DNA of 64,000 bases. Origin: Dictyostelium discoideum. Its lineage: Eukaryota. Below, piece after piece: positions 9,369 through 41,834 of this stretch. Numbering within the stretch: the first letter of the stretch is position 1; every line of letters starts with the position of its first letter. Made by a program: the position numbers and the translations under genes. Where the stretch lies: the NCBI GenBank assembly GCA_000004695.1, contig CM000151.3:3872001-3936000 (forward strand). The letters run 5' to 3'. The notes below the pieces were generated by a model. It was not told where the DNA came from, made no database searches, and saw nothing but the letters and a program-made list of their open reading frames with translations.

Positions 9369-12593
<3,225 letters not shown>

Positions 12594-12678
12594 CTTTAAA
12601 AAAATAAATTAATAAATTAATAAATTAATAAATTAATAAATTAAAAATATATATATGTATGTATATATTTATATTTAA

Positions 12679-12958
12679 GTTTGAAATTAAATTTAATTGA
12701 TAACAAAGTTCATTTAATCTTTCTTGTGATAAAGTTGAAATTATATTTAATAAATCTGATTTTGATTCAACAAATGAAACATTTCTTAATGCAATCTCTT
12801 TAATTTCAGGGAAATTTTTAAATACTATTTTTTGTAATTCTTGAATATTCTGATAATGAATACCTGTTGCTTGATCTTTTGTTAATTCTTCTCCTGTAAA
12901 ATTATCAATATCAAAATTATAATAAACTTTTAATATTCCTAATAATCCTTCTAAAACT
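12679..12958 (-). CDS. Aquarius exon 3 (SVLEGLLGILKVYYNFDIDNFTGEELTKDQ...FPEIKEIALRNVSFVESKSDLLNIISTLSQERLNELCYQLNLISN); 3' boundary unresolved
   Basis: acceptor aaatAG at 12960-59; aligns residue-by-residue to human AQR [22 protein letters not shown]...[45 protein letters not shown]; no canonical GT donor on this strand between 12601 and 12700. Confidence 0.6.
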
Positions 12959-13053
12959 CTATTTTATAAATAAAATAAAAATAAAAATTAAAATTAAAAA
13001 TTAAAAATTAATATTTAATTATTATATAAAAATAAAAAATAACCAATACATAC

Positions 13054-13315
13054 GACTTTGATTTATCATCATTTGATTTTAAAAATTCAGATTGAGATGT
13101 TTTTAAAATAAAATGAAAATCATCAAATAAAGCGAAAAAGAATCTTCTTGTTGTAATTTGAGTCATTAAATCAATCATAAACTCTAAAAATCTTTCACAA
13201 TAATTTAATGATTCTTTAAATTGTGTAAAATTTGATGATTTCAATCTTTCTAAATTATTTAAACTTTCAATAAATTGTTTCATTAAATCTAATAAAAAAT
13301 TTGAATATTTAATTT
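13054..13315 (-). CDS. Aquarius exon 2 (EIKYSNFLLDLMKQFIESLNNLERL...NYCERFLEFMIDLMTQITTRRFF..LFDDFHFIL...)
   Basis: acceptor ttttAG at 13317-16; donor TC|GTATGT at 13053; matches human AQR [36 protein letters not shown]. Confidence 0.75.
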
Positions 13316-13386
13316 CTAAAATAAAAAAAAAATAAAAAAAGTTAATATTTTTTGTTAAAAAAATATAAATAAATAAAGATAAATAC

Positions 13387-14140
13387 CAATTGAATTTGAA
13401 TTATTATTTGATAATTTTTCAATTTTCTTTTTAAATAATCTTAATTTCTTTTCTAATGGTTCTGATAATGATTGAGATTCTTGTTGAAATCTTCCAGATG
13501 ATAAATGTAACCAAATTGGATAAGAAACAATCTTTAAACATTCATTTCTAACCAAGACATCTTCAACATTTTGAAAAGCGTTAATGAAAAACTTTATGAA
13601 ATTACATTTCTCTATATCTGTCAATTCTGATAAATCAATTTGTAATAAACTTTCAAATAAATTTTTAAAACTTGATGATGGTGATGATTCTTCTTGTTCA
13701 CTATTATCATCAGATGATGATGATGATTTTGAATGAAATGTTTGGAATGAGTTTAAACCTTCTTTTGATTTTTCATTTACCATCATTAGAATTGACATTA
13801 TATGATATTTATTGGTTGATGTAGTTTTATTGAAATTTGGCCATAAATAATTCTCGAGGTAATGTGATAATTCTAATAATTGAACTCTTTGATCTGATTT
13901 TAACATTTCATCTTTGTATATCTTTTCAACTAAATTACTATCAAATGTTTTGGTATTAACTTCTTTTAACCACTGTTGTTTACTTAATTTGGTAATTTCA
14001 TCACTTAAAACTTCTGAAAGTGTTAATTTATTACTACTAACACTATTATTACTATTATTATCTAATTTTTGTTTTTTTCTATTGTCATCATTTTCTTCAT
14101 TATCTGTACCATGCTTATTGGATTTATTATTCCCAACCAT
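13387..14140 (-). CDS. Aquarius exon 1 (N-terminus)
   Basis: ATG 14140; LTLSEV..ITKL...W, EKIYKDEMLKS, LLELSHYLENYLWPNF, KYHIMSILMMVNEKS match the AQR N-terminal domain; donor G|GTATTT at 13386. Confidence 0.75.
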
Positions 14141-14218
14141 CTTTTATGAATGTGTAATATAATTAAATGATCTTTCAATTGTTGAAATTTTTCATTTTTT
14201 GAAAATTTTCAAAATCAA

Positions 14219-14261
<43 letters not shown>

Positions 14262-14560
14262 TTTTATTTTTACTTTATTTTTGTCACGATTATTTTGGAA
14301 ACTTTATAAAAATCTCAAAAAAAAAAAAATAAAAATAACTTAAATCAATCATTTATATTTCAAAAAAAAATATATGAAAGTAAAAAATAAAAAAAAAAGA
14401 AAATATTAAATAAATAAATGGAATGGTTTAAAATGATAAAAGATTGTTTTCAAAAAAAAAAAAAATAAAAAAAAAAAAAAAAACAATTTTGTAATCTCAA
14501 ATAATCATTAATATTATATTTATTTATTTATTTTTTTTTTTTTTTGTTTTTAATAATTTG

Positions 14561-14670
14561 TTTTTTTTTTATTTGTTTAATTTCTTTCTTTTTTAAGAAT
14601 AAATTTTTATCTTTTTTTTTTTTTTTTATTTGTTTAATTTCTTTCTCTTTTTTTTAAGAACAAATTTTAA

Positions 14671-14680
<10 letters not shown>
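14561..14680. repeat. ~60-bp tandem direct duplication in the vatD upstream region
   Basis: tttatttgtttaatttctttc(t)ttttttaagaa(t/c)aaatttt.atctttttt occurs twice in tandem. Confidence 0.8.
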
Positions 14681-14709
<29 letters not shown>

Positions 14710-14748
14710 TAAAACAATGTCTGGAAAATAGATTTTGGTTTAATTAAA

Positions 14749-14784
<36 letters not shown>

Positions 14785-14871
14785 TGTTCTGGGCAAACAC
14801 AAAACCAAAAAGTTTATGATTTTTTCTATTTTTTTATTTTTTTTTTCCACTGTGTTTTAGCCTGGTCATAC

Positions 14872-14902
<31 letters not shown>

Positions 14903-15022
14903 AAAATTTAATTTTTATTTTTATTTTTTTTTTTTTTTTCTAATTTTTTTATTTATATTTATATATATATTTTATCTTTTTATTTATTCTTTATCGAATA
15001 TCATAATTAAAAGAATAAAACA

Positions 15023-15063
15023 ATGTCTGGAAAAAATAGATTAAATATTTTCCCAACTAGAAT
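15023..15063 (+). CDS. vatD: V-type ATPase subunit D, exon 1 (MSGKNRLNIFPTRM)
   Basis: matches V-ATPase D N-terminus MSGKDRIEIFPSRM; donor AT|GTATGG at 15064. Confidence 0.8.
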
Positions 15064-15162
15064 GTATGGTTATAGATATTTTTAATAATAATAATAAAAA
15101 AAGAATGCTATAGTTTTAGCTTTTTCACTTCACACCAACCAACCAATCAATCAATCAATCGG

Positions 15163-15194
<32 letters not shown>

Positions 15195-15289
15195 CTTATA
15201 AACAATTATGAATGGTTATATTAATCTTTTTTTTTTTTATTTTTTTAATTAATAATAATAATAAAAAATAATAATAAAAATATATATAG

Positions 15290-15710
15290 GGCATTAACAG
15301 TGATGAAAACCAAATTAAAGGGTGCTGTCACTGGTCATTCACTTTTAAAAAAGAAATCAGATGCTCTTACAATTCGTTTCAGAAGAATTTTAGCAAACAT
15401 TGTTGAAAACAAACAATTAATGGGTACAACAATGAGAGATGCATCATTCTCTCTTGCTGCTGCTAAATATGCTGCAGGTGAATTCTCAAACTCTGTAATT
15501 GAAAACGTTTCAAATCCAACCATCGCCGTCAAAATGACCACTGAAAATGTTGCTGGTGTTCATTTACCAACTTTTGAGAAAATCTCTGAAGGTGTCGTTA
15601 GCAATTCACAAGAACTTACTGGTCTTTCAAAAGGTGGTCAACAAATTAATAAATCTCGTGAATCACACATTAAAGCTGTCGAAGCTTTAATTGCTCTCGC
15701 TTCTTTACAA
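15290..15710 (+). CDS. vatD: V-ATPase subunit D exon 2
   Basis: acceptor tatAG at 15288-89; ALTVMKTKLKGAVTGHSLLKKKSDALTIRFRRIL...NVAGVHLPTF...ELTGL.KGG...AVEALIALASLQ matches subunit D throughout; donor CAA|GTATGT at 15711. Confidence 0.9.
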
Positions 15711-15729
15711 GTATGTCCATTTTAATAAT

Positions 15730-15830
<101 letters not shown>

Positions 15831-15874
15831 TATTATAATATTAACTTTTTATATTTTTAAAAATAATTTTTTAG

Positions 15875-16186
15875 ACTGCTTTCATTACATTGGATGAAGT
15901 TATTAAAATTACAAATAGACGTGTTAATGCAATTGAATACGTAGTTAAACCAAAACTTGAAAATACCATCAGTTATATTATTACAGAGTTGGATGAAAGT
16001 GAAAGAGAAGAGTTTTACAGATTGAAGAAAGTTCAAGGTAAAAAGAAGAAAGATTTGAAAGCAAAAGAAGCACAAAAAGAAGAAAACTCTGCAAATAAAA
16101 CAATCATGGAACCAGCCTCTGTTCATAAAGTTAGAAGTCTCATCGATGATGAACCAGAAGATGCTGAATTATTATATGAAGATTAA
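15875..16186 (+). CDS. vatD: V-ATPase subunit D exon 3 ([52 protein letters not shown]...)
   Basis: acceptor ttttAG at 15873-74; conserved [19 protein letters not shown]....T..YI..ELDE.EREEF.RLKK; stop TAA at 16184-86; intron 2 contains an (ATA)n repeat. Confidence 0.9.
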
Positions 16187-17249: not shown

Positions 17250-17950
17250 TTAAAATTGACCAGTTTTAATTTTTGGAGACATTGGTTTTTCATTCAACCA
17301 ATCACTTCTTTTTTCAAATTTGGTAGTTTTTCCATCACTATCTTTTTTGATCATAATTTCTTCTTTTTTGATTAATTTTGGAGAGTTGAGACCAGTTGTT
17401 TGAGTCATTTGAGTAGTGGTTTGAGTGAATTCAGAAGCCATTTTAGCACCCTTTGAAATGGATAGGATTGGTGCTGGCATTGGTTTAACATTGAGTACAC
17501 AACTATCGGATTTTTGTAAGATAATTTCAGGAGTACCTTTGAATTCAGAGATTCTAACGATTGGTTCACTTCTAAAGAGTTTAATTAATGGTTCTTGTTG
17601 AGAGACATTAATATTTGGTGGAGTTGCAGCTGCGAATGAAACCATTGGTTTTGAGGATTGAATTTGAACTTCTGGTTTTTGTTGATTAATGATAACTGAT
17701 GCTTTTGGTTGGTTTACACTAACCATTGGTTCTCTTTGAATAAATTCAACTCTTGGTGCCATTTGATTCACATCAATGATTGGTGCATGTTGATCCAAAA
17801 AGATTCTTGGTGCTGGTTGTTGAATTTCAACTTGTGCTGCTGGTACTGTAACTTCAGCTCTTAATGATTTTTCAACAACATCCAAATCTGTTGCATTCTC
17901 TTTAATGATAATTTCTGGTGGAACTTCATAGACATTAATATTGTCCTTAC
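17250..17950 (-). CDS. Repeat-protein paralogue A, exon 2 (GKDNINVYEVPPEIIIKENATDLDVVEKSLRAEVTVPAAQVEIQQPAPRI...; tandem PxVxVxQ-type repeats)
   Basis: acceptor ataAG at 17952-51 restores frame (G+GT); ORF 17250..17885 plus 5' extension; about 12-residue repeats xP.V.V.Q..P. Confidence 0.6.
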
Positions 17951-17965
17951 CTTATTTTTTAAAAA

Positions 17966-17997
<32 letters not shown>

Positions 17998-18067
17998 AAA
18001 AATATTTTAGTTTAAAATTATTTTTAAATAAAAAATATTTAAATATTAAATTATAATAATTATTTAC

Positions 18068-18260
18068 CTTCATCAACTTTAATTTGAGTTTGTTGTTTTT
18101 CAACTAATACTCTTTGTCTTGGTTGTTCTAATTTAATGACACCATCATCATAATTGTTAACCCAAGTTTGTTGTTTAACAATTTTAGTTGTGGTTTTTTC
18201 ATTATCAGAGAAACGTGGAGTACCTTTTTGGCAAGTGGTTTTAATTTGATTTAAATCCAT
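18068..18260 (-). CDS. Repeat-protein paralogue A, exon 1 (MDLNQIKTTCQKGTPRFSDNEK...VLVEKQQTQIKVDE-)
   Basis: ORF 18060..18260; donor G|GTAAAT at 18067; divergently oriented to paralogue B. Confidence 0.6.
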
Positions 18261-18264
18261 TGTT

Positions 18265-18295
<31 letters not shown>

Positions 18296-19025
18296 AGAAA
18301 TTTATTGTAAATAATTGTTTATTTTTATTATTTATTAGATTGTTATTTGAGTGAATGAATTAAAATTTTTTTTTTTTTTTGTTTAAAAAGAAAATCAAAA
18401 ACATAGTAAAATTTAACTTTGAAAAAAAATGTGTTTTTTTTTTTTTAGATCTCTAATAACCACCATATTAATTATAGATTGATATTTTATTTTGGATTTT
18501 TTTTTTTTTTTAATTAAAATTAAAATTTAATTTCCTATTTTAGATATTAGAAAAAATTAAAAAAAATAAAAAAATAAAAATAAAATTAAATTTTTTTTTT
18601 TTTTTTTTTTTTTACTAAAATAGATTTTTACTTTTATTTTATTTTTTTTATTTTTTTATTTTTTTTTACTAAAATATTTTTAATTGGGACAATAGATATT
18701 TTATTATGTTTTTTTTTTTTTCTTTTATTTTTGTTTTTTTATTATTAATAAAAAAAAAAAAAAAATAAATAAAAATAAAAAAAAATTTAAAAATAAATAA
18801 ATTAAATTAAAATGATAATATCGATCTTTTATCAAAACATTTAAGAGATTTAAGTAAAAAAAAAAAAAAAAAAAAAAAGGTTTGTTTTTATAGTTTATAA
18901 AAAAATTTTTTTTTTTTATTTTTCCAAGTTTCATTTTAATAAATATTTTCTAAATAAATATATAAATATAAATATATAAATTTTTTAAATAAAAAAAATA
19001 TAATTCATAGTAATTTTTAATCTAT

Positions 19026-19056
<31 letters not shown>

Positions 19057-19057
<1 letters not shown>

Positions 19058-19647
19058 TGGTTGAAAAAGTTTATTCAAGTTCACCAAAGCAACAAGCTGA
19101 TGAAAGAGTTTATTCAACAACAGGAAATGCTGGAACCTATAGGGATAGCTACGATATTTCAGTTAAACAACAACCAGCTCATTTAACATTTGATCAAACA
19201 CCAATGTATTTAGAATTGAATGAAATCGCTAAACATATTTCAGTGGAGAGAGCTCAACCAACCGTTAACATTGGTCGTGCCGCCGATTTAATTCAAGTTA
19301 AACAAGAACCAGTTCAAGTCCAAGTTCAACAAAATGCAACCGATGTAAATGTTACCACTGAACAACAAGTTATCGAAGTTCAACAAGTTGCTCCAGAAGT
19401 TGAAATTGAACAATATATGCCAAAATTCTATCTTAAAATGCCACCATTCCGTGTTCATTTGGAAATGGACGGTGCTCCTGAAATCATTATGGAACCATAT
19501 CAACCTTCCATTAAAGTTAAACAATCTGATCCAATCGTTCGTGTAACTAAACCTGATCCAAGAGTTTTAGTTACTGAAAATCCACCAAAAATTGATATCA
19601 TTCAAAATGCTTCTTCTGTTGATGTTATTCCTTCAACTAAAGCTTCT
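19057..19647 (+). CDS. Repeat-protein paralogue B, exon 1 (PxVxVxQ repeats: QPTVNIG.., EPVQVQVQQ, VIEVQQVAPEVEIEQ, SDPIVRVTKPDPRVLVTENPPKIDIIQ)
   Basis: ATG 19057; donor TCT|GTAAGT at 19648. Confidence 0.7.
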
Positions 19648-19739
19648 GTAAGTTTTAATTATTTTAAAAAATCTTATATATATATATTAATAATTATACT
19701 AACTTTTTTTTTTTTTTTTTTTTTTTTTAAAATTAATAG

Positions 19740-20538
19740 ATCCAAGTTAAAGAAGATAAACCAAAGATTACTATTCAAGAATATAATCCAACAATGACAT
19801 TTAGAGAAGGTGAAACTAAATTTGATTATAAATCATTCCAACCAGAAGTTCAATGGGAGAATCCAACACCAAAGGTTACAGTTTCACAAGGTGAACCAAC
19901 AATTAGAGTTTCACAAGATACACCATCAATCGGACTTAAGAATAGAGAACCATCAGTTACTATCAATACTAAAGCACCAAAGATCGATGTTCATCATCAT
20001 CCATTATCAGTATCTGTCGTTGAGCCAGCTACAACTGTTCATTTCGGTAATCCAAATAGCTATGCTGCCGCTGCCGCTCATCAACCACATGAACATAATT
20101 GGGAAGAAATTAAAGCAATTAAAGTTGACCAACCATTAGAGAAAATCGGTCATTTCTATTCCCCATCTGAAAAGACCCTAACTTCATTCAATTTATGGAA
20201 AAACATATTAACCTCAACTGAAAAAGTTATTGCAAACAAAGGTGTTGGTAGAAATTTCTTTACCCTTATCGACACTCATGAAAATAAAATCTGTGAATGT
20301 TTCAAAGAGGATTTAGGTCTCCACAGATTCAATCTCAACATTCGTTCTTCAACTGGTGACCTTTTATTCAAAGGTGAATCTCAAGGTCGTACACTTAAAC
20401 TCTTTGATACTCAAGGTACTTTATTCTGTACCGTTGAATGTAGTAAAGATCAAGTAGAATGTTTCAATGATAAAGGTCAATTATGTTTCAATTTATTACC
20501 AAATTCTATGAAATGGTTCTTTGATATTAGAAACAAAG
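19740..20538 (+). CDS. Paralogue B exon 2 (IQVKEDKPKITIQEYNPTMTFREGE...EPTIRVSQDTPSIGLKNREPSVTINTKAPKIDVHHHP..., then a Cys-containing beta-rich C-terminal domain, possibly LURP-one/tubby-like)
   Basis: acceptor aatAG at 19738-39; ORF 19794..20543; donor G|GTTAGT at 20539. Confidence 0.65.
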
Positions 20539-20672
20539 GTTAGTAGTATTATATTAAATTTTAATTTATAATAATAATGTTTTATATATAATTCTCTCTC
20601 TAATACATTATTCTTTTTTTTTTTCTTTTTCTTTTTTTTTAATTGTAATAAAAACTAATACTACCAATTTAG

Positions 20673-39401: not shown

Positions 39402-40832
39402 TTATGTTGATGGTGTTAGTGGTTTAACTGAAAATAAATTTGGAATTCCACCAATAAATCCGCTCTTTTCTGATGGTTGTTGGTTTGTTGAGGTTGTTGT
39501 CGATCTAGTGGAAATTCCACTAAGGAATCCACTTGGTTTTGGTGTTTCATTAGCATTTGTTGTAGATATTGCTGGTGATGTTGTAGAAGGTTTTTTAGTT
39601 ACTGTAGGTGGTAAAGTTGGTTTTATATTTGAAAATTCACCGATGTATCCACTTTTTTCAGTGGTTTGCGTAATACCTCCAATCAATCCACCAAATGGAG
39701 CATTTCCAGTTGTTGAGGTTGATTGGGTATTTGAGGTTGGTATAAAACCTATTAAACCTGGCAATAGATTGGATGGCGGAGGAGTAGAATGCGTTTGAGT
39801 TGGGGTTGGTGTTTGAGTTTGAGTTTGAGTTGGTGTTTGAGTTTGAGTTGGTGTTGGTGTTTGAGTTTGAGTTGGAGTTTGTGTTTGAGTTTGTATTGGT
39901 TTTGGAGTTTGAGTTTGTGTTGGAGTTTGTGTTTGGGTTTGAGTTGGTGTTGGTGTTTTAGTTTGAGTTGGTTTTGGAGTTTGGGTTTGTGTTGGAGTTT
40001 GTGTTTGAGTTTGAGTTGGTGTTGATGTTTGAGTTTGAGTTGGTGTTTGTGTTTGAGTTTGTGTTTGTGTTTGTGTTTGTGTTGGTGTTTGTGTTGGTGT
40101 TTGTGTTTGAGTTTGTGTTTGTGTTGGTTTTGGAGTTTGTGTTTGTGTTGGAGTTTGTGTTTGTGTTGAATTTTGTGTTTGTGTTTGTGTTTGTGTTTGT
40201 GTTTGTGTTTGTGTTGGTGTTGGTGTTGGTGTGTGGGTTTGTGTTGGTGTTGGAGTTGGAGTTTGTGTTGGAGTTGGAGTTTGTGTTGGAGTCGGAGTTT
40301 GGGTTGGTGTTGGTGTTGGAGTTTGAGTTGTTGGTGTTTGTGTTGGTGTTTGCGTTGGAGTTTGTGTTGGTGTTGGTGTTTGAGTTGATGTTTGTGTTGG
40401 TGTCGAGGTTGGTGTATTGATTCCACCTAAAAAGCCTCCAAAGAAACCAGATGCTTTTGTTGGTGTTGGTGTTGGTGTTGTTGATATTGATGTTGGTGTT
40501 GTTGATATTGATGTTGGTGTTGAGGATGGTGCATTGATACCACCAAAAATGCCTCATAAGAAACCAGATGCTTTTGTTGGTGTTGGTGTTGGTGTTTGAG
40601 TTTGAGTTGGTGTTGGTGTTAGTGTTGGTGTTATTGTTGGGGTTTGAGTTGGGGTTGGTGTTAGTGTTGGTGTTGGTGTTAGGGTTTGAGTTTGTGTTGG
40701 TGTTGGTGCTATTGTTATTGTTGGGGTTTGAGTTTGTCTTTGAGTTTGTGTAGGTGTTGGTGTTTGAGTTGGTGTTGGTGTTGGTGTTTGTGTTTGGGTT
40801 GGTGTTGGTGTATTGTAACCTCCAAAATAGCC
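39402..40832 (-). repeat. 1.4-kb coding-type hexanucleotide (AACACC/AACTCA) Pro/Thr/Gln repeat array, open in the same frame as upstream gene D, with interspersed K(A/E)SGF(L/F)GG(Y/I/F)FGG(Y/I)N(T/A)P units; lies 3' of the first in-frame TGA of gene D
   Basis: the PT reading frame is continuous from 41834 to 39402 except for two TGA codons (40835-33 and about 40550), each replacing the GGA Gly codon of the unit GFL-G-G; the track's overlapping ORFs on both strands here are alternative frames of the repeat. Confidence 0.7.
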
Positions 40833-41834
40833 TCATAAGAAACCAGATGCTTTAGTTGGAGTGGGTGTTGGTGTTTGTGATTGGGTGGCTGTAGTTGTAG
40901 TTGTAGGTGTTGGTGTTGGTGTAGGTGTATTGTAGCCACCGAAATAGCCTCCTAAAAAACCAGATTCTTTAGTTGGAGTGGGTGTTGGTGTTTGTGATTG
41001 AGTGGGTGTAGTTGTAGGTGTTGGTGTAGGTAGTGGTTGGGTTGGTGAAGGTGTTTGAATAGGTTGTGTTGTACCAGTTGTTGAACCACCAAATAAACCA
41101 CCCAAGAAACTAGATACTGGTTTTTGAGTTGGATTTGGGGTTGGAGTTGAGGTTGGGGTTGGAGTTGATGAAAGTGTTTGTGCGGGTGTTGGTGTTGATC
41201 CACCACCACCTATAAATCCACCTAAAAAACCACTTGATGGTTTCGATGTTGGAGTTGGAGTTAAAGATGGTGTTACACCACCATTTGTACTTCCACCACT
41301 TATGAAACCACCAATGAAACCAGTACCACCACCATTTGGTTGGGTAGGTACAGGGGTTTGAGTTTTAAAACCACCACTACCTCCACCTAATAAACCACCT
41401 AACAAACCTGAAGATCCGCCACCTAATAAAGCACCACCAATTAAATGTGGGATATTATCAACTCCAATTAAACCAGAAGTTGATGTAACACGTGGACATA
41501 ATAATTTTGCTTCAATGATTGCACCAAATAAACCACTAAATAAATTTGATAGACCAAATATTGATTTTTGTACTCTTTCATCCATATTATCTTGATCCAT
41601 AATAATTATACCTTTATTAACTGGAATCCCATCTTTATTAAACAATTCAGGATAACAAAAGTTTCTATATTTTGAACATAATGAAGTAATCTTTACATCA
41701 ATATTATCAACTAAATAGTTTAAATCATAATTTTGATCTGTTAAATAATTTTTAATTCTTGATATAAAATATTTTTGTTTTTCATCTTCATTTAATTTAT
41801 TAAATAATTTTAAAGATACATCATTTTTATCATT
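40833..41834 (-). CDS. Secreted Cys-pair/GxLGG-repeat protein D, exon 2 (NDKNDVSLKLFNKL...CSKYRNFCYPELF...GLIGV..LIGGALLGGGSSGLLGGLLGGG..., then PT-rich linker with GFLGG units), to the first TGA
   Basis: acceptor tttAG at 41836-35; ORF 40833..41645 extended 5'; terminates at TGA 40835-40833. Confidence 0.65.
   Translation of the reverse strand, partial: NDKNDVSLKLFNKLNEDEKQKYFISRIKNYLTDQNYDLNYLVDNIDVKITSLCSKYRNFCYPELFNKDGIPVNKGIIIMDQDNMDERVQKSIFGLSNLFSGLFGAIIEAKLLCPRVTSTSGLIGVDNIPHLIGGALLGGGSSGLLGGLLGGGSGGFKTQTPVPTQPNGGGTGFIGGFISGGSTNGGVTPSLTPTPTSKPSSGFLGGFIGGGGSTPTPAQTLSSTPTPTSTPTPNPTQKPVSSFLGGLFGGSTTGTTQPIQTPSPTQPLPTPTPTTTPTQSQTPTPTPTKESGFLGGYFGGYNTPTPTPTPTTTTTATQSQTPTPTPTKASGFL

What the first reader, a model, noticed from the sequence alone, without database searches (positions are those of the whole stretch)
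12594..12710. Aquarius exon 3/exon 4 junction cannot be spliced canonically: no GT on the coding strand for 100 nt and a 1-nt frame offset between two strongly conserved blocks
The block ...SKSDLLNIISTLSQERLNELCYQLNLIS (frame fixed by alignment to human AQR) and the block ...KSFLIALVLMKYKKKESVIEQSINRVSLYPTEK (frame fixed by the downstream helicase) lie in different frames. Between them, the plus strand 12601-12700 contains no C at all, so the minus strand has no G-T (or G-C) dinucleotide for a donor. The only AG acceptor is at 12595-94, in phase 0. The interval, (AATTTATT)5 plus a TA-rich tract, looks like a typical intron. This implies a non-canonical donor, an upstream weak donor (GTTATC at 12704) combined with an undetected acceptor, or a 1-nt indel in the simple-sequence tract. 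The indel would be either real (programmed or tolerated frameshift unlikely) or an assembly error.
Basis: seen in the sequence. Interest (0 to 1): 0.55.

Follow-up and report, generated by a model that had tools for sequence, protein, structure and literature searches.

The report
Aquarius intron lacking a GT donor
In a Dictyostelium-type gene for the splicing helicase Aquarius, one short AT-rich intron has a normal 3' end but no GT (in fact no G) where its 5' splice site must be. This is either a defect in this sequence version or a rare non-GT intron, and the data reachable here cannot tell which.

Summary
On the coding (minus) strand there is no G from 12703 to 12595 (109 nt), so no GT or GC donor exists there. 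The first AG (12595-94) is a good acceptor in phase 0.

Both flanking blocks are coding. They align to human AQR and match Pfam Aquarius_N_1st to its end. In Cavenderia fasciculata the ortholog reads straight through the junction without an intron (...LTELCIKLNLIDKSANNKSSIVHSKEYLIAIL...).

Every in-frame canonical GT-AG or GC-AG pairing deletes conserved residues and scores 10.6 to 35 bits less on Pfam. The "1-nt frame offset" is normal for exons either side of an intron. A 1-nt indel cannot repair the junction, because the exon-3 frame closes at TAA 12627-25 and the exon-4 frame opens only at 12608.

Introns 1 and 2 are canonical and shared with Cavenderia; intron 3 is absent from Cavenderia.

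My best reading (about 0.5) is an ordinary intron whose donor is damaged in this sequence, by a base error, small rearrangement or lab-strain lesion. Two phase-0 sites (TTAAAT, ATAAAT) are one base from GTAAAT. A real non-G donor (about 0.3) is not excluded.

No Dictyostelium transcript or genome data were reachable, so the cause stays open. Interest is low to moderate.

The parts
9369..14140 (-). aquarius (AQR/IBP160-type helicase) gene, from the ATG to the stop codon
   Evidence: Pfam gives Aquarius_N_1st, Aquarius beta-barrel, AAA_11 and AAA_12. PDB AQR chains match at E=2.6e-45. ORFs are listed, and the gene model is.
13387..14140 (-). exon 1, followed by canonical intron 1 (13316-13386, G|GTATTT...TTTTAG|AA, phase 1)
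   Evidence: C. fasciculata has an intron at the same position and phase (G|GTATGA...TTTTTAG|AA).
13054..13315 (-). exon 2, followed by canonical intron 2 (12959-13053, TC|GTATGT...AAATAG|A, phase 2)
   Evidence: C. fasciculata has a phase-2 intron at the corresponding place (AA|GTATGC...TTTTAG|G).
12682..12958 (-). exon 3, ending at least at ...LNELCYQLNLIS. The true 3' end may lie up to about 15 nt further, at 12667.
   Evidence: Pfam PF16399 profile positions 274-363. The block is conserved in human AQR and C. fasciculata.
12594..12681 (-). intron-like interval of 88 nt, 95.5% AT. Its 3' half is normal (repeated TTAAT/TTTAT branch-like motifs, a T run, AAAG). There is no GT or GC anywhere at its 5' side.
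   Evidence: The composition matches that of introns 1 and 2 (93.0 and 94.7% AT).
12595..12703 (-). 109-nt run without G on the coding strand
12594..12595 (-). 3' splice site AG (TTATTTTTTTAAAG|GAA), phase 0. It is the first AG after the G-free run.
9369..12593 (-). exon 4 (ESNESKSFLIALVLMKYKKK... to the stop)
   Evidence: SKSFLIALVL aligns to SKEYLIAILL of C. fasciculata.
12699..12704 (-). nearest upstream GT (TTT|GTTATC), phase 1. It is a poor match to the donors used locally.
   Evidence: The inferred local donors are GTATGT, GTAAGT and GTAAAT, with A at +3 and T at +6.
12667..12678 (-). two phase-0 hexamers, AAC|TTAAAT (12678-12673) and AAT|ATAAAT (12672-12667). Each differs from the locally used donor GTAAAT only at position +1.
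   Evidence: About a 0.3 chance of occurring at random, so this is suggestive only.
12603..12648 (.). tandem repeat (AATAAATT)x5.9 inside the intron
12631..12688 (.). 26-nt quasi-palindrome, 77% complementary, arms 12631-12656 and 12663-12688. Its 6-nt loop (12657-12662) reads GTATGT on the plus (antisense) strand.
   Evidence: The fold is not more stable than shuffles (z=0.18).
12657..12664 (+). antisense GTATGTAT, a sequence otherwise seen mostly at donors in this window
   Evidence: Eight occurrences on both strands, four in a clear exon|intron context (a fifth, 55101, narrowly misses the filter).
12625..12627 (-). first stop (TAA) in the exon-3 frame. The last stop in the exon-4 frame is at 12611-12609, so the two frames do not overlap.

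Best explanation
The interval 12681-12594 on the minus strand is an ordinary short AT-rich spliceosomal intron (intron 3) of the aquarius gene. It is present in this Dictyostelium-type genome and absent from Cavenderia.

The mature mRNA must join ...CYQLNLIS (possibly plus N, NLN or a few more residues) to ESNESKSFLIAL... at the AG of 12595-94 (phase 0).

In the sequence as given, the 5' splice site is not intact. The most likely reason is that this sequence version differs from the functional allele at the donor. Possible causes are a base-call error, a small rearrangement or deletion in a 95% AT, repeat-rich, quasi-palindromic stretch, or a lesion specific to the sequenced laboratory strain.

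The simplest repair is a single change to G at 12678 (TTAAAT to GTAAAT) or at 12672 (ATAAAT to GTAAAT). Both are in phase 0.

What is shown:
- the gene identity;
- that both flanks are coding;
- the acceptor and its phase;
- the absence of any G;
- the failure of the canonical alternatives and of the indel idea.

What is inferred: that the donor defect lies in the sequence rather than in the biology.
For: - **Both blocks are coding.** They align to human AQR and to metagenome homologs. The C. fasciculata ORF is continuous across the junction with LNLI(D/S) and SK(E/S)(Y/F)LIA conserved.
- **Pfam favours keeping both blocks.** PF16399 runs to its last position only when both are kept: 86.4 bits for LIS|ESNE and 88.6 bits for LISNLN|ESNE. 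The canonical pairings score 75.8, 53.2 and 51.6 bits.
- **The 3' half looks like a normal intron.** Its AT content and length match those of introns 1 and 2.
- **The other two introns are canonical** and conserved in position and phase with Cavenderia. The gene and its splicing are otherwise ordinary.
- **Near-donors exist.** Two phase-0 sites are one substitution from GTAAAT, a donor used elsewhere in the window.
- **Reference errors are documented.** The D. discoideum AX4 reference has missing bases and TAA-for-TTA substitutions in expressed genes. Curators patched 119 sites in 102 genes with impossible introns shorter than 5 bp (PMC5282741).
- **The ORF is intact.** The rest of the 1,500-codon reading frame is unbroken in a 77% AT genome, so the gene was under selection until very recently.
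- **Mechanistic knowledge (my own, not tested here).** A U2-type intron with a non-G first base and a 3' AG is blocked at the second catalytic step.
Against: - No read, transcript or second genome of the same or a sister species could be reached. The defect is therefore inferred, not seen.
- A rough prior puts reference errors that hit one of about 17,000 donors at roughly one genome-wide. That is the same order as the expected number of real non-G donors.
- NTAAAT at a phase-0 site has about a 0.3 chance of occurring at random in this composition.
- If the window comes from a modern, polished assembly, a substitution error is less likely.
Confidence: 0.5

Rival explanations
1. The sequence is correct and the intron is really spliced from a non-G 5' splice site. 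Examples are AAT|ATAAAT...AAAG|G (AT-AG) or AAC|TTAAAT...AG, removed by the major spliceosome, perhaps inefficiently. Such a weak intron in a spliceosomal helicase gene could act as a brake on its own expression.
For: - The need for a splice between 12681 and 12594 is firm.
- No G is present.
- Two phase-0 sites keep positions +2 to +6 of a used donor.
- The ORF is otherwise intact, which argues that the gene is functional as it stands.
Against: - Every other inferred intron in the window starts with GT.
- From my own knowledge of splicing, G1 is required and A1 with a 3' AG stalls after the first step.
- There is no AC at the 3' end to compensate, and no U12-type motifs (seen directly).
- Dictyostelium is reported to lack the minor spliceosome (PMC11347168).
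- No transcript evidence is available.
Confidence: 0.3
2. Splicing is canonical but uses other sites, so the protein of this species simply lacks the residues. The options are GT 12704 to AG 12564 (142 nt, giving ...LNEL-S-LVLMKY...) or GT 12771 or 12780 to AG 12595.
For: These are the only in-frame GT-AG pairings that keep an open frame near the junction. A gene finder restricted to GT-AG would choose one of them.
Against: - They delete CYQLNLIS and/or SKSFLIA. Both are conserved in C. fasciculata, human AQR and 8 metagenome homologs.
- The Pfam PF16399 score falls by 10.6 to 35 bits and the match is truncated.
- GTTATC, GTTGAA and GTTTCA do not resemble the local donors GTA(A/T)GT and GTAAAT.
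- The 12704-12564 pairing skips three nearer AGs, including the strong AG at 12595.
Confidence: 0.07
3. A micro-inversion, real or a cloning artefact, flipped the first ~25 nt of the intron. Inverting 12657-12681 gives TCA|GTATGTATATATTTATATTTAAGTT..., a textbook local donor in phase 0 directly after ...LNLIS.
For: - GTATGTAT occurs only 8 times on both strands of the window. About half of these sit at clear exon|intron boundaries, and one lies antisense inside this donor-less intron. The chance of that in 100 nt is roughly 0.005-0.02.
- The region is a 26-nt quasi-palindrome with GTATGT as its loop.
Against: - The natural event, a flip of the loop alone, puts the GT in phase 1 or 2, which does not fit the phase-0 acceptor (my own reading of the sequence).
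- The 25-nt block has no flanking inverted repeats of its own.
- The left breakpoint was chosen to make the phase work.
- Base-composition skew of intron 5' parts gives no orientation signal: T exceeds A in 7 donor-like sites and A exceeds T in 9.
- The hairpin is no more stable than shuffled sequence.
- (TATG)2 inside a (TA)n run can easily arise by chance.
Confidence: 0.06
4. The gene is broken at this point. Either it is a recent pseudogene, or it is expressed as two separate products or via ribosomal frameshifting.
For: As given, the exon-3 frame ends at a TAA inside the interval (12627-25).
Against: - A 1,074-codon open exon 4 and intact exons 1-3 in a 77% AT genome argue against decay.
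- Only about 75 nt separate the TAA from the first ATG of exon 4, which leaves no room for a promoter.
- The two frames do not overlap (frame 0 closes at 12625, frame 1 opens at 12608). This excludes +1 or -1 frameshifting.
Confidence: 0.04

Closest known systems
Ordinary U2-type GT-AG introns of Dictyostelium (short, about 90-95% AT, donor GTA(A/T)GT or GTAAAT)
   Same: Length 88 nt, 95.5% AT, a T run plus AAAG acceptor, and branch-like TTAAT motifs 15-40 nt upstream of the AG. Its removal restores a conserved protein. Its neighbours, introns 1 and 2, are of exactly this type.
   Different: There is no GT, and no G at all, at or near the 5' boundary.
Documented errors of the D. discoideum AX4 reference that break gene models (clcD, DDB_G0279477; 119 curated introns shorter than 5 bp; Singh et al. 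2017, PMC5282741)
   Same: An expressed, conserved gene whose model cannot be closed with the reference as written. The region is AT-rich. Single-base substitutions and missing bases are the proven error types.
   Different: Those cases are frameshifts or stops inside exons. Here the lesion would be in a splice donor. No RNA-seq evidence for this gene was available to me, and I could not map the window to the published list of sites.
Rare non-GT U2-type introns (AT-AC, and sporadic AT-AG or TT-AG reported in animals; from my own knowledge)
   Same: Positions +2 to +6 of a normal donor are retained (TAAAT), with a normal 3' region.
   Different: AT-AC introns end in AC; this one ends in AG. None has been reported for Dictyostelium in the papers I could search.
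U12-type (minor) introns
   Same: They can start with AT.
   Different: There is no ATATCC donor, no TCCTTAAC branch site and no AC end. Minor spliceosome snRNAs are not found in D. discoideum (PMC11347168).

Membership tests
Aquarius / IBP160 helicase (the gene) | N-terminal Aquarius ARM-like domain (Pfam PF16399) | tested here: met
   Exon 1 scores 125 bits (profile positions 1-188). Exon 3 scores 83 bits (positions 274-363). Exon 3 joined to exon 4 scores 86-89 bits and reaches profile position 392 of 393.
Aquarius / IBP160 helicase (the gene) | Aquarius beta-barrel plus SF1 helicase core (AAA_11, AAA_12) | tested here: met
   PF21143 120 bits, PF13086 90 bits, PF13087 106 bits. The human AQR chains 4pj3 and 5mqf match at E=2.6e-45.
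U2-type GT-AG (or GC-AG) intron | GT or GC at the 5' end | tested here: not met
   No G on the coding strand from 12703 to 12595.
U2-type GT-AG (or GC-AG) intron | AG at the 3' end preceded by a T-rich tract and a branch-like motif | tested here: met
   TTATTTTTTTAAAG|G at 12595-94. TTAAT and TTTAT motifs lie 11-43 nt upstream. The motif is weak in such AT-rich DNA.
U2-type GT-AG (or GC-AG) intron | Removal yields an open frame that encodes the conserved protein | tested here: met
   Any phase-0 5' boundary between 12681 and 12643, joined to 12593, gives an open frame of 1505-1518 aa. It also gives the best Pfam scores.
U2-type GT-AG (or GC-AG) intron | Spliced transcript observed | not testable with these tools
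   No Dictyostelium transcripts or proteins are in the reachable collections.
U12-type AT-AC intron | /ATATCC donor, TCCTTAAC branch site, AC 3' end, minor spliceosome present in the organism | tested here: not met
   The interval holds only three C, in AAC and TACATAC. None of the motifs is present and the 3' end is AG. Minor snRNAs are not detected in D. discoideum (PMC11347168).
Programmed ribosomal frameshift | The two reading frames overlap at a slippery site | tested here: not met
   Frame 0 ends at TAA 12627-25. Frame 1 is closed until 12608. Frame 2 has stops as well.
AX4-type reference sequence error | Reads of the same strain disagree with the reference at the site | not testable with these tools
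   No reads are available. Only the general precedent exists (PMC5282741).

The most novel reading that the evidence does not exclude
The sequence is correct, and the aquarius gene of this amoeba carries a young, lineage-specific intron that is spliced from a 5' site without G (AT-AG or TT-AG type) by the major spliceosome. Such a poorly spliced intron in a spliceosomal helicase gene might serve as a feedback sensor of splicing capacity.
Probability: 0.3. Interest if true: 0.6.

Novelty: new member of a known kind. Interest (0 to 1): 0.3.

Why it matters
If it is a sequence defect, it is one more gene model that needs correction in the reference and annotation, here for a core spliceosome component. 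It would also show that reference errors can hide in splice sites, not only in exons.

If the sequence is right, it would be a verified non-G 5' splice site used by a major-type spliceosome in an organism without a minor spliceosome. That is mechanistically unexpected, because the first G is needed for exon ligation. Its location in a splicing-factor gene would invite a test for autoregulation.

Either way, a handful of reads would settle it.

Tried and rejected
1. **Looking for the organism's own annotation or transcripts.**
   - The protein search with the junction region returned no dictyostelid.
   - An exact look-up of the exon-4 ORF and of three full-length models (canonical 12704-12564, canonical 12771-12595, LIS|ESNE) found nothing on record.
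   - The vatD control shows that the genus Dictyostelium is absent from the collection and only C. fasciculata is present.
2. **DNA scans.** Metagenome and prokaryote-genome contigs held no aqr relatives or an exact exon-4 32-mer.
3. **Literature.** I found nothing on Dictyostelium aquarius or on non-GT introns in Dictyostelium. The list of curated tiny introns gives only chromosome coordinates and DDB ids, which I could not map to this window.
4. **1-nt indel or read-through.** Rejected from the positions of the stops.
5. **Ribosomal frameshift.** Rejected for the same reason.
6. **U12-type or AT-AC intron.** Rejected because the motifs are absent.
7. **Hairpin-loop flip of GTATGT.** This gives the wrong phase. 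The 25-nt inversion works only with an ad hoc breakpoint. A/T and G/C skew of intron 5' parts gave no orientation signal, and the hairpin is not unusually stable.
8. **Insertion bounded by the 5-nt direct repeat TCAAA (12684-80 and 12590-86, 94 nt apart).** Excision is in frame, but this has a 1 in 3 chance, the repeat is trivial in AT-rich DNA, and none of the six possible boundaries is canonical.
9. **A repeated element.** The 5' part of the interval is unique in the window.

Full report
**1. What is in the window**

The region is 77% AT. Its coding sequences carry long poly-Asn tracts and its introns are short and about 95% AT. This fits Dictyostelium discoideum or a close relative, an inference from composition and gene content.

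The minus strand from 14140 to 9369 encodes an Aquarius/IBP160-type helicase.
- Pfam finds Aquarius_N_1st, the Aquarius beta-barrel, AAA_11 and AAA_12.
- The junction region matches human AQR chains 4pj3 and 5mqf at E=2.6e-45.

The gene model is:
- exon 1: 14140-13387
- intron 1: 13386-13316 (G|GTATTT...TTTTAG|AA, phase 1)
- exon 2: 13315-13054
- intron 2: 13053-12959 (TC|GTATGT...AAATAG|A, phase 2)
- exon 3: from 12958
- exon 4: 12593-9369

**2. Check of the observation**

- The plus strand has no C from 12595 to 12703 (109 nt), so the coding strand has no G and no GT or GC.
- The first AG is 12595-94 (TTATTTTTTTAAAG|GAA) and is in phase 0.
- The nearest upstream GT is 12704 (TTT|GTTATC, phase 1), followed by 12771 and 12780 (both phase 0).
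- The (AATAAATT)x5.9 array lies at 12603-12648.

G-free runs of this length are common in the window, with at least 15 of each kind. The run is therefore not remarkable in itself. It matters only because it covers the sole place where a donor can lie.

**3. Are both flanks really coding?**

Yes.
- Human AQR aligns as [12 protein letters not shown]...DKEFLLELLVSRH to LNELCYQLNLIS...SKSFLIALVLMKY.
- A 10-sequence alignment shows the pattern L-x4-L-x6-L-x-L-(L/I)-(S/T/P), then a variable linker of 4 to more than 40 residues, then (S/D)(K/R)xF(L/I)xx(L/I)(L/I)V.
- The strongest evidence comes from Cavenderia fasciculata. The vatD gene next to aqr led to its locus, where aqr and vatD sit head to head as they do here.
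- There the aqr ORF is continuous across the junction...VESKESLLRWFGALDLPRLTELCIKLNLIDKSANNKSSIVHSKEYLIAILLFTYRRR....
- Cavenderia shares introns 1 and 2 in position and phase but has no intron 3.

The splice in the window must therefore fall between the codon for S (12684-82) and the codons for SKSF (from 12581).

**4. Canonical alternatives**

I enumerated every GT or GC paired with every AG that keeps an open frame. The nearest ones are:
- 12704 to 12564, which gives ...LNEL-S-LVLMKY;
- 12771 to 12595;
- 12780 to 12595.

All of them delete residues conserved in Cavenderia. Pfam PF16399 scores by model:

| Model | Score (bits) | Profile reached |
|---|---|---|
| LIS\|ESNE | 86.4 | 392 of 393 |
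| LISNLN\|ESNE | 88.6 | 392 of 393 |
| 12704 to 12564 | 75.8 | stops at 372 |
| 12771 to 12595 | 53.2 | truncated |
| 12780 to 12595 | 51.6 | truncated |

The donors inferred elsewhere in the window are GTATGT, GTAAGT and GTAAAT, with A at +3 and T at +6. GTTATC, GTTGAA and GTTTCA do not resemble them.

**5. The indel and frameshift ideas**

Exons either side of an intron need not share a genomic frame, so the "1-nt offset" is not an anomaly. A single indel cannot give read-through. The exon-3 frame closes at TAA 12627-25, the exon-4 frame is closed until 12608, and the third frame has stops. The same facts exclude ribosomal frameshifting. An indel inside an intron cannot create a donor.

**6. 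What the interval looks like**

The 88 nt from 12681 to 12594 are 95.5% AT, like introns 1 and 2 (93.0 and 94.7%). They carry repeated TTAAT and TTTAT branch-like motifs 11-43 nt from the AG, and a T run. The 3' half is thus that of a normal intron, and only the donor is missing.

Among the phase-0 positions, AAC|TTAAAT (12678) and AAT|ATAAAT (12672) match the used donor GTAAAT at +2 to +6. A single change to G would make a canonical 85- or 79-nt intron and a linker of N or NLN plus ESNE. This match has about a 0.3 chance of occurring at random, so it is only suggestive.

**7. An unexplained coincidence**

GTATGTAT occurs eight times on both strands of the window. Four occurrences are in a clear exon|intron context and a fifth narrowly misses the filter. 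One lies on the plus strand at 12657-12664, antisense inside this intron. It forms the 6-nt loop of a 26-nt, 77% complementary quasi-palindrome.

Inverting 12657-12681 would give TCA|GTATGTAT in phase 0. However:
- the mechanistically natural loop flip gives phase 1 or 2;
- there are no flanking inverted repeats for the 25-nt block;
- composition skew gives no orientation signal;
- the hairpin is no more stable than shuffles.

I keep this as a low-probability variant of the "sequence defect" reading.

**8. External evidence**

No Dictyostelium protein, transcript or genome was reachable.

The literature shows that the AX4 reference contains missing bases and TAA-for-TTA substitutions in expressed genes. 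It also shows that curators patched 119 sites in 102 genes with impossible tiny introns (PMC5282741). I could not map that list to the window.

D. discoideum is reported to lack minor-spliceosome snRNAs (PMC11347168). The interval has none of the U12 motifs.

**9. Verdict**

The estimates below rest on rough priors, not on direct evidence.

| Reading | Probability |
|---|---|
| Ordinary intron (absent from Cavenderia) whose donor is damaged in this sequence version, by reference error, small rearrangement or lab-strain lesion | about 0.5 (plus about 0.06 for the inversion variant) |
| Real non-G donor | about 0.3 |
| Canonical cryptic splicing with a shortened protein | about 0.07 |
| Broken gene | about 0.04 |

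A few RNA or genomic reads would decide between them.

Noticed in passing
window 9369-16186 and L001 4211-11001: The head-to-head gene pair aquarius (minus) / vatD (plus) is conserved between this window and Cavenderia fasciculata GL883009.1. aqr introns 1 and 2 keep position and phase in both species; intron 3 exists only in the window.
   Followed up: yes
window 39793-40292 (ORFs 39752-41645, minus strand): A 500-nt stretch without any C on the plus strand. It is a degenerate hexamer array (TTTGAG/TTTGTG/TTGGTG)n. On the minus strand it encodes a Thr/Pro/Gln-rich repeat and is open in several overlapping frames.
   Followed up: no
L001 4211-8824: The C. fasciculata aquarius gene (1488 aa) has no Pfam hit on record in the gene table. 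It was not returned by the protein search with the Dictyostelium junction region, although its ORF clearly matches PF16399, PF21143, PF13086 and PF13087.
   Followed up: partly
window 11774-11977: A 204-nt G-free run inside aqr exon 4. It is an (AAT)n-type tract that encodes a poly-Asn insertion of about 50 residues in the helicase N-terminal region. The insertion is absent from human AQR.
   Followed up: no
window 12667-12696: The last codons of exon 3 (TTAAAT TTAATT TCAAAC TTAAAT ATAAAT = LN LI SN LN IN) form a degenerate hexamer tandem repeat that runs from conserved coding sequence into the intron-like interval. This makes the true exon end ambiguous and the site prone to slippage.
   Followed up: partly
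window 17250-20543: Several ORFs on both strands encode proteins with repeated short V/P/Q-rich motifs, for example ...QPAPRIFLDQHAPIIDVNQMAPRVEFIQREPMVSVNQPK.... They were not identified.
   Followed up: no
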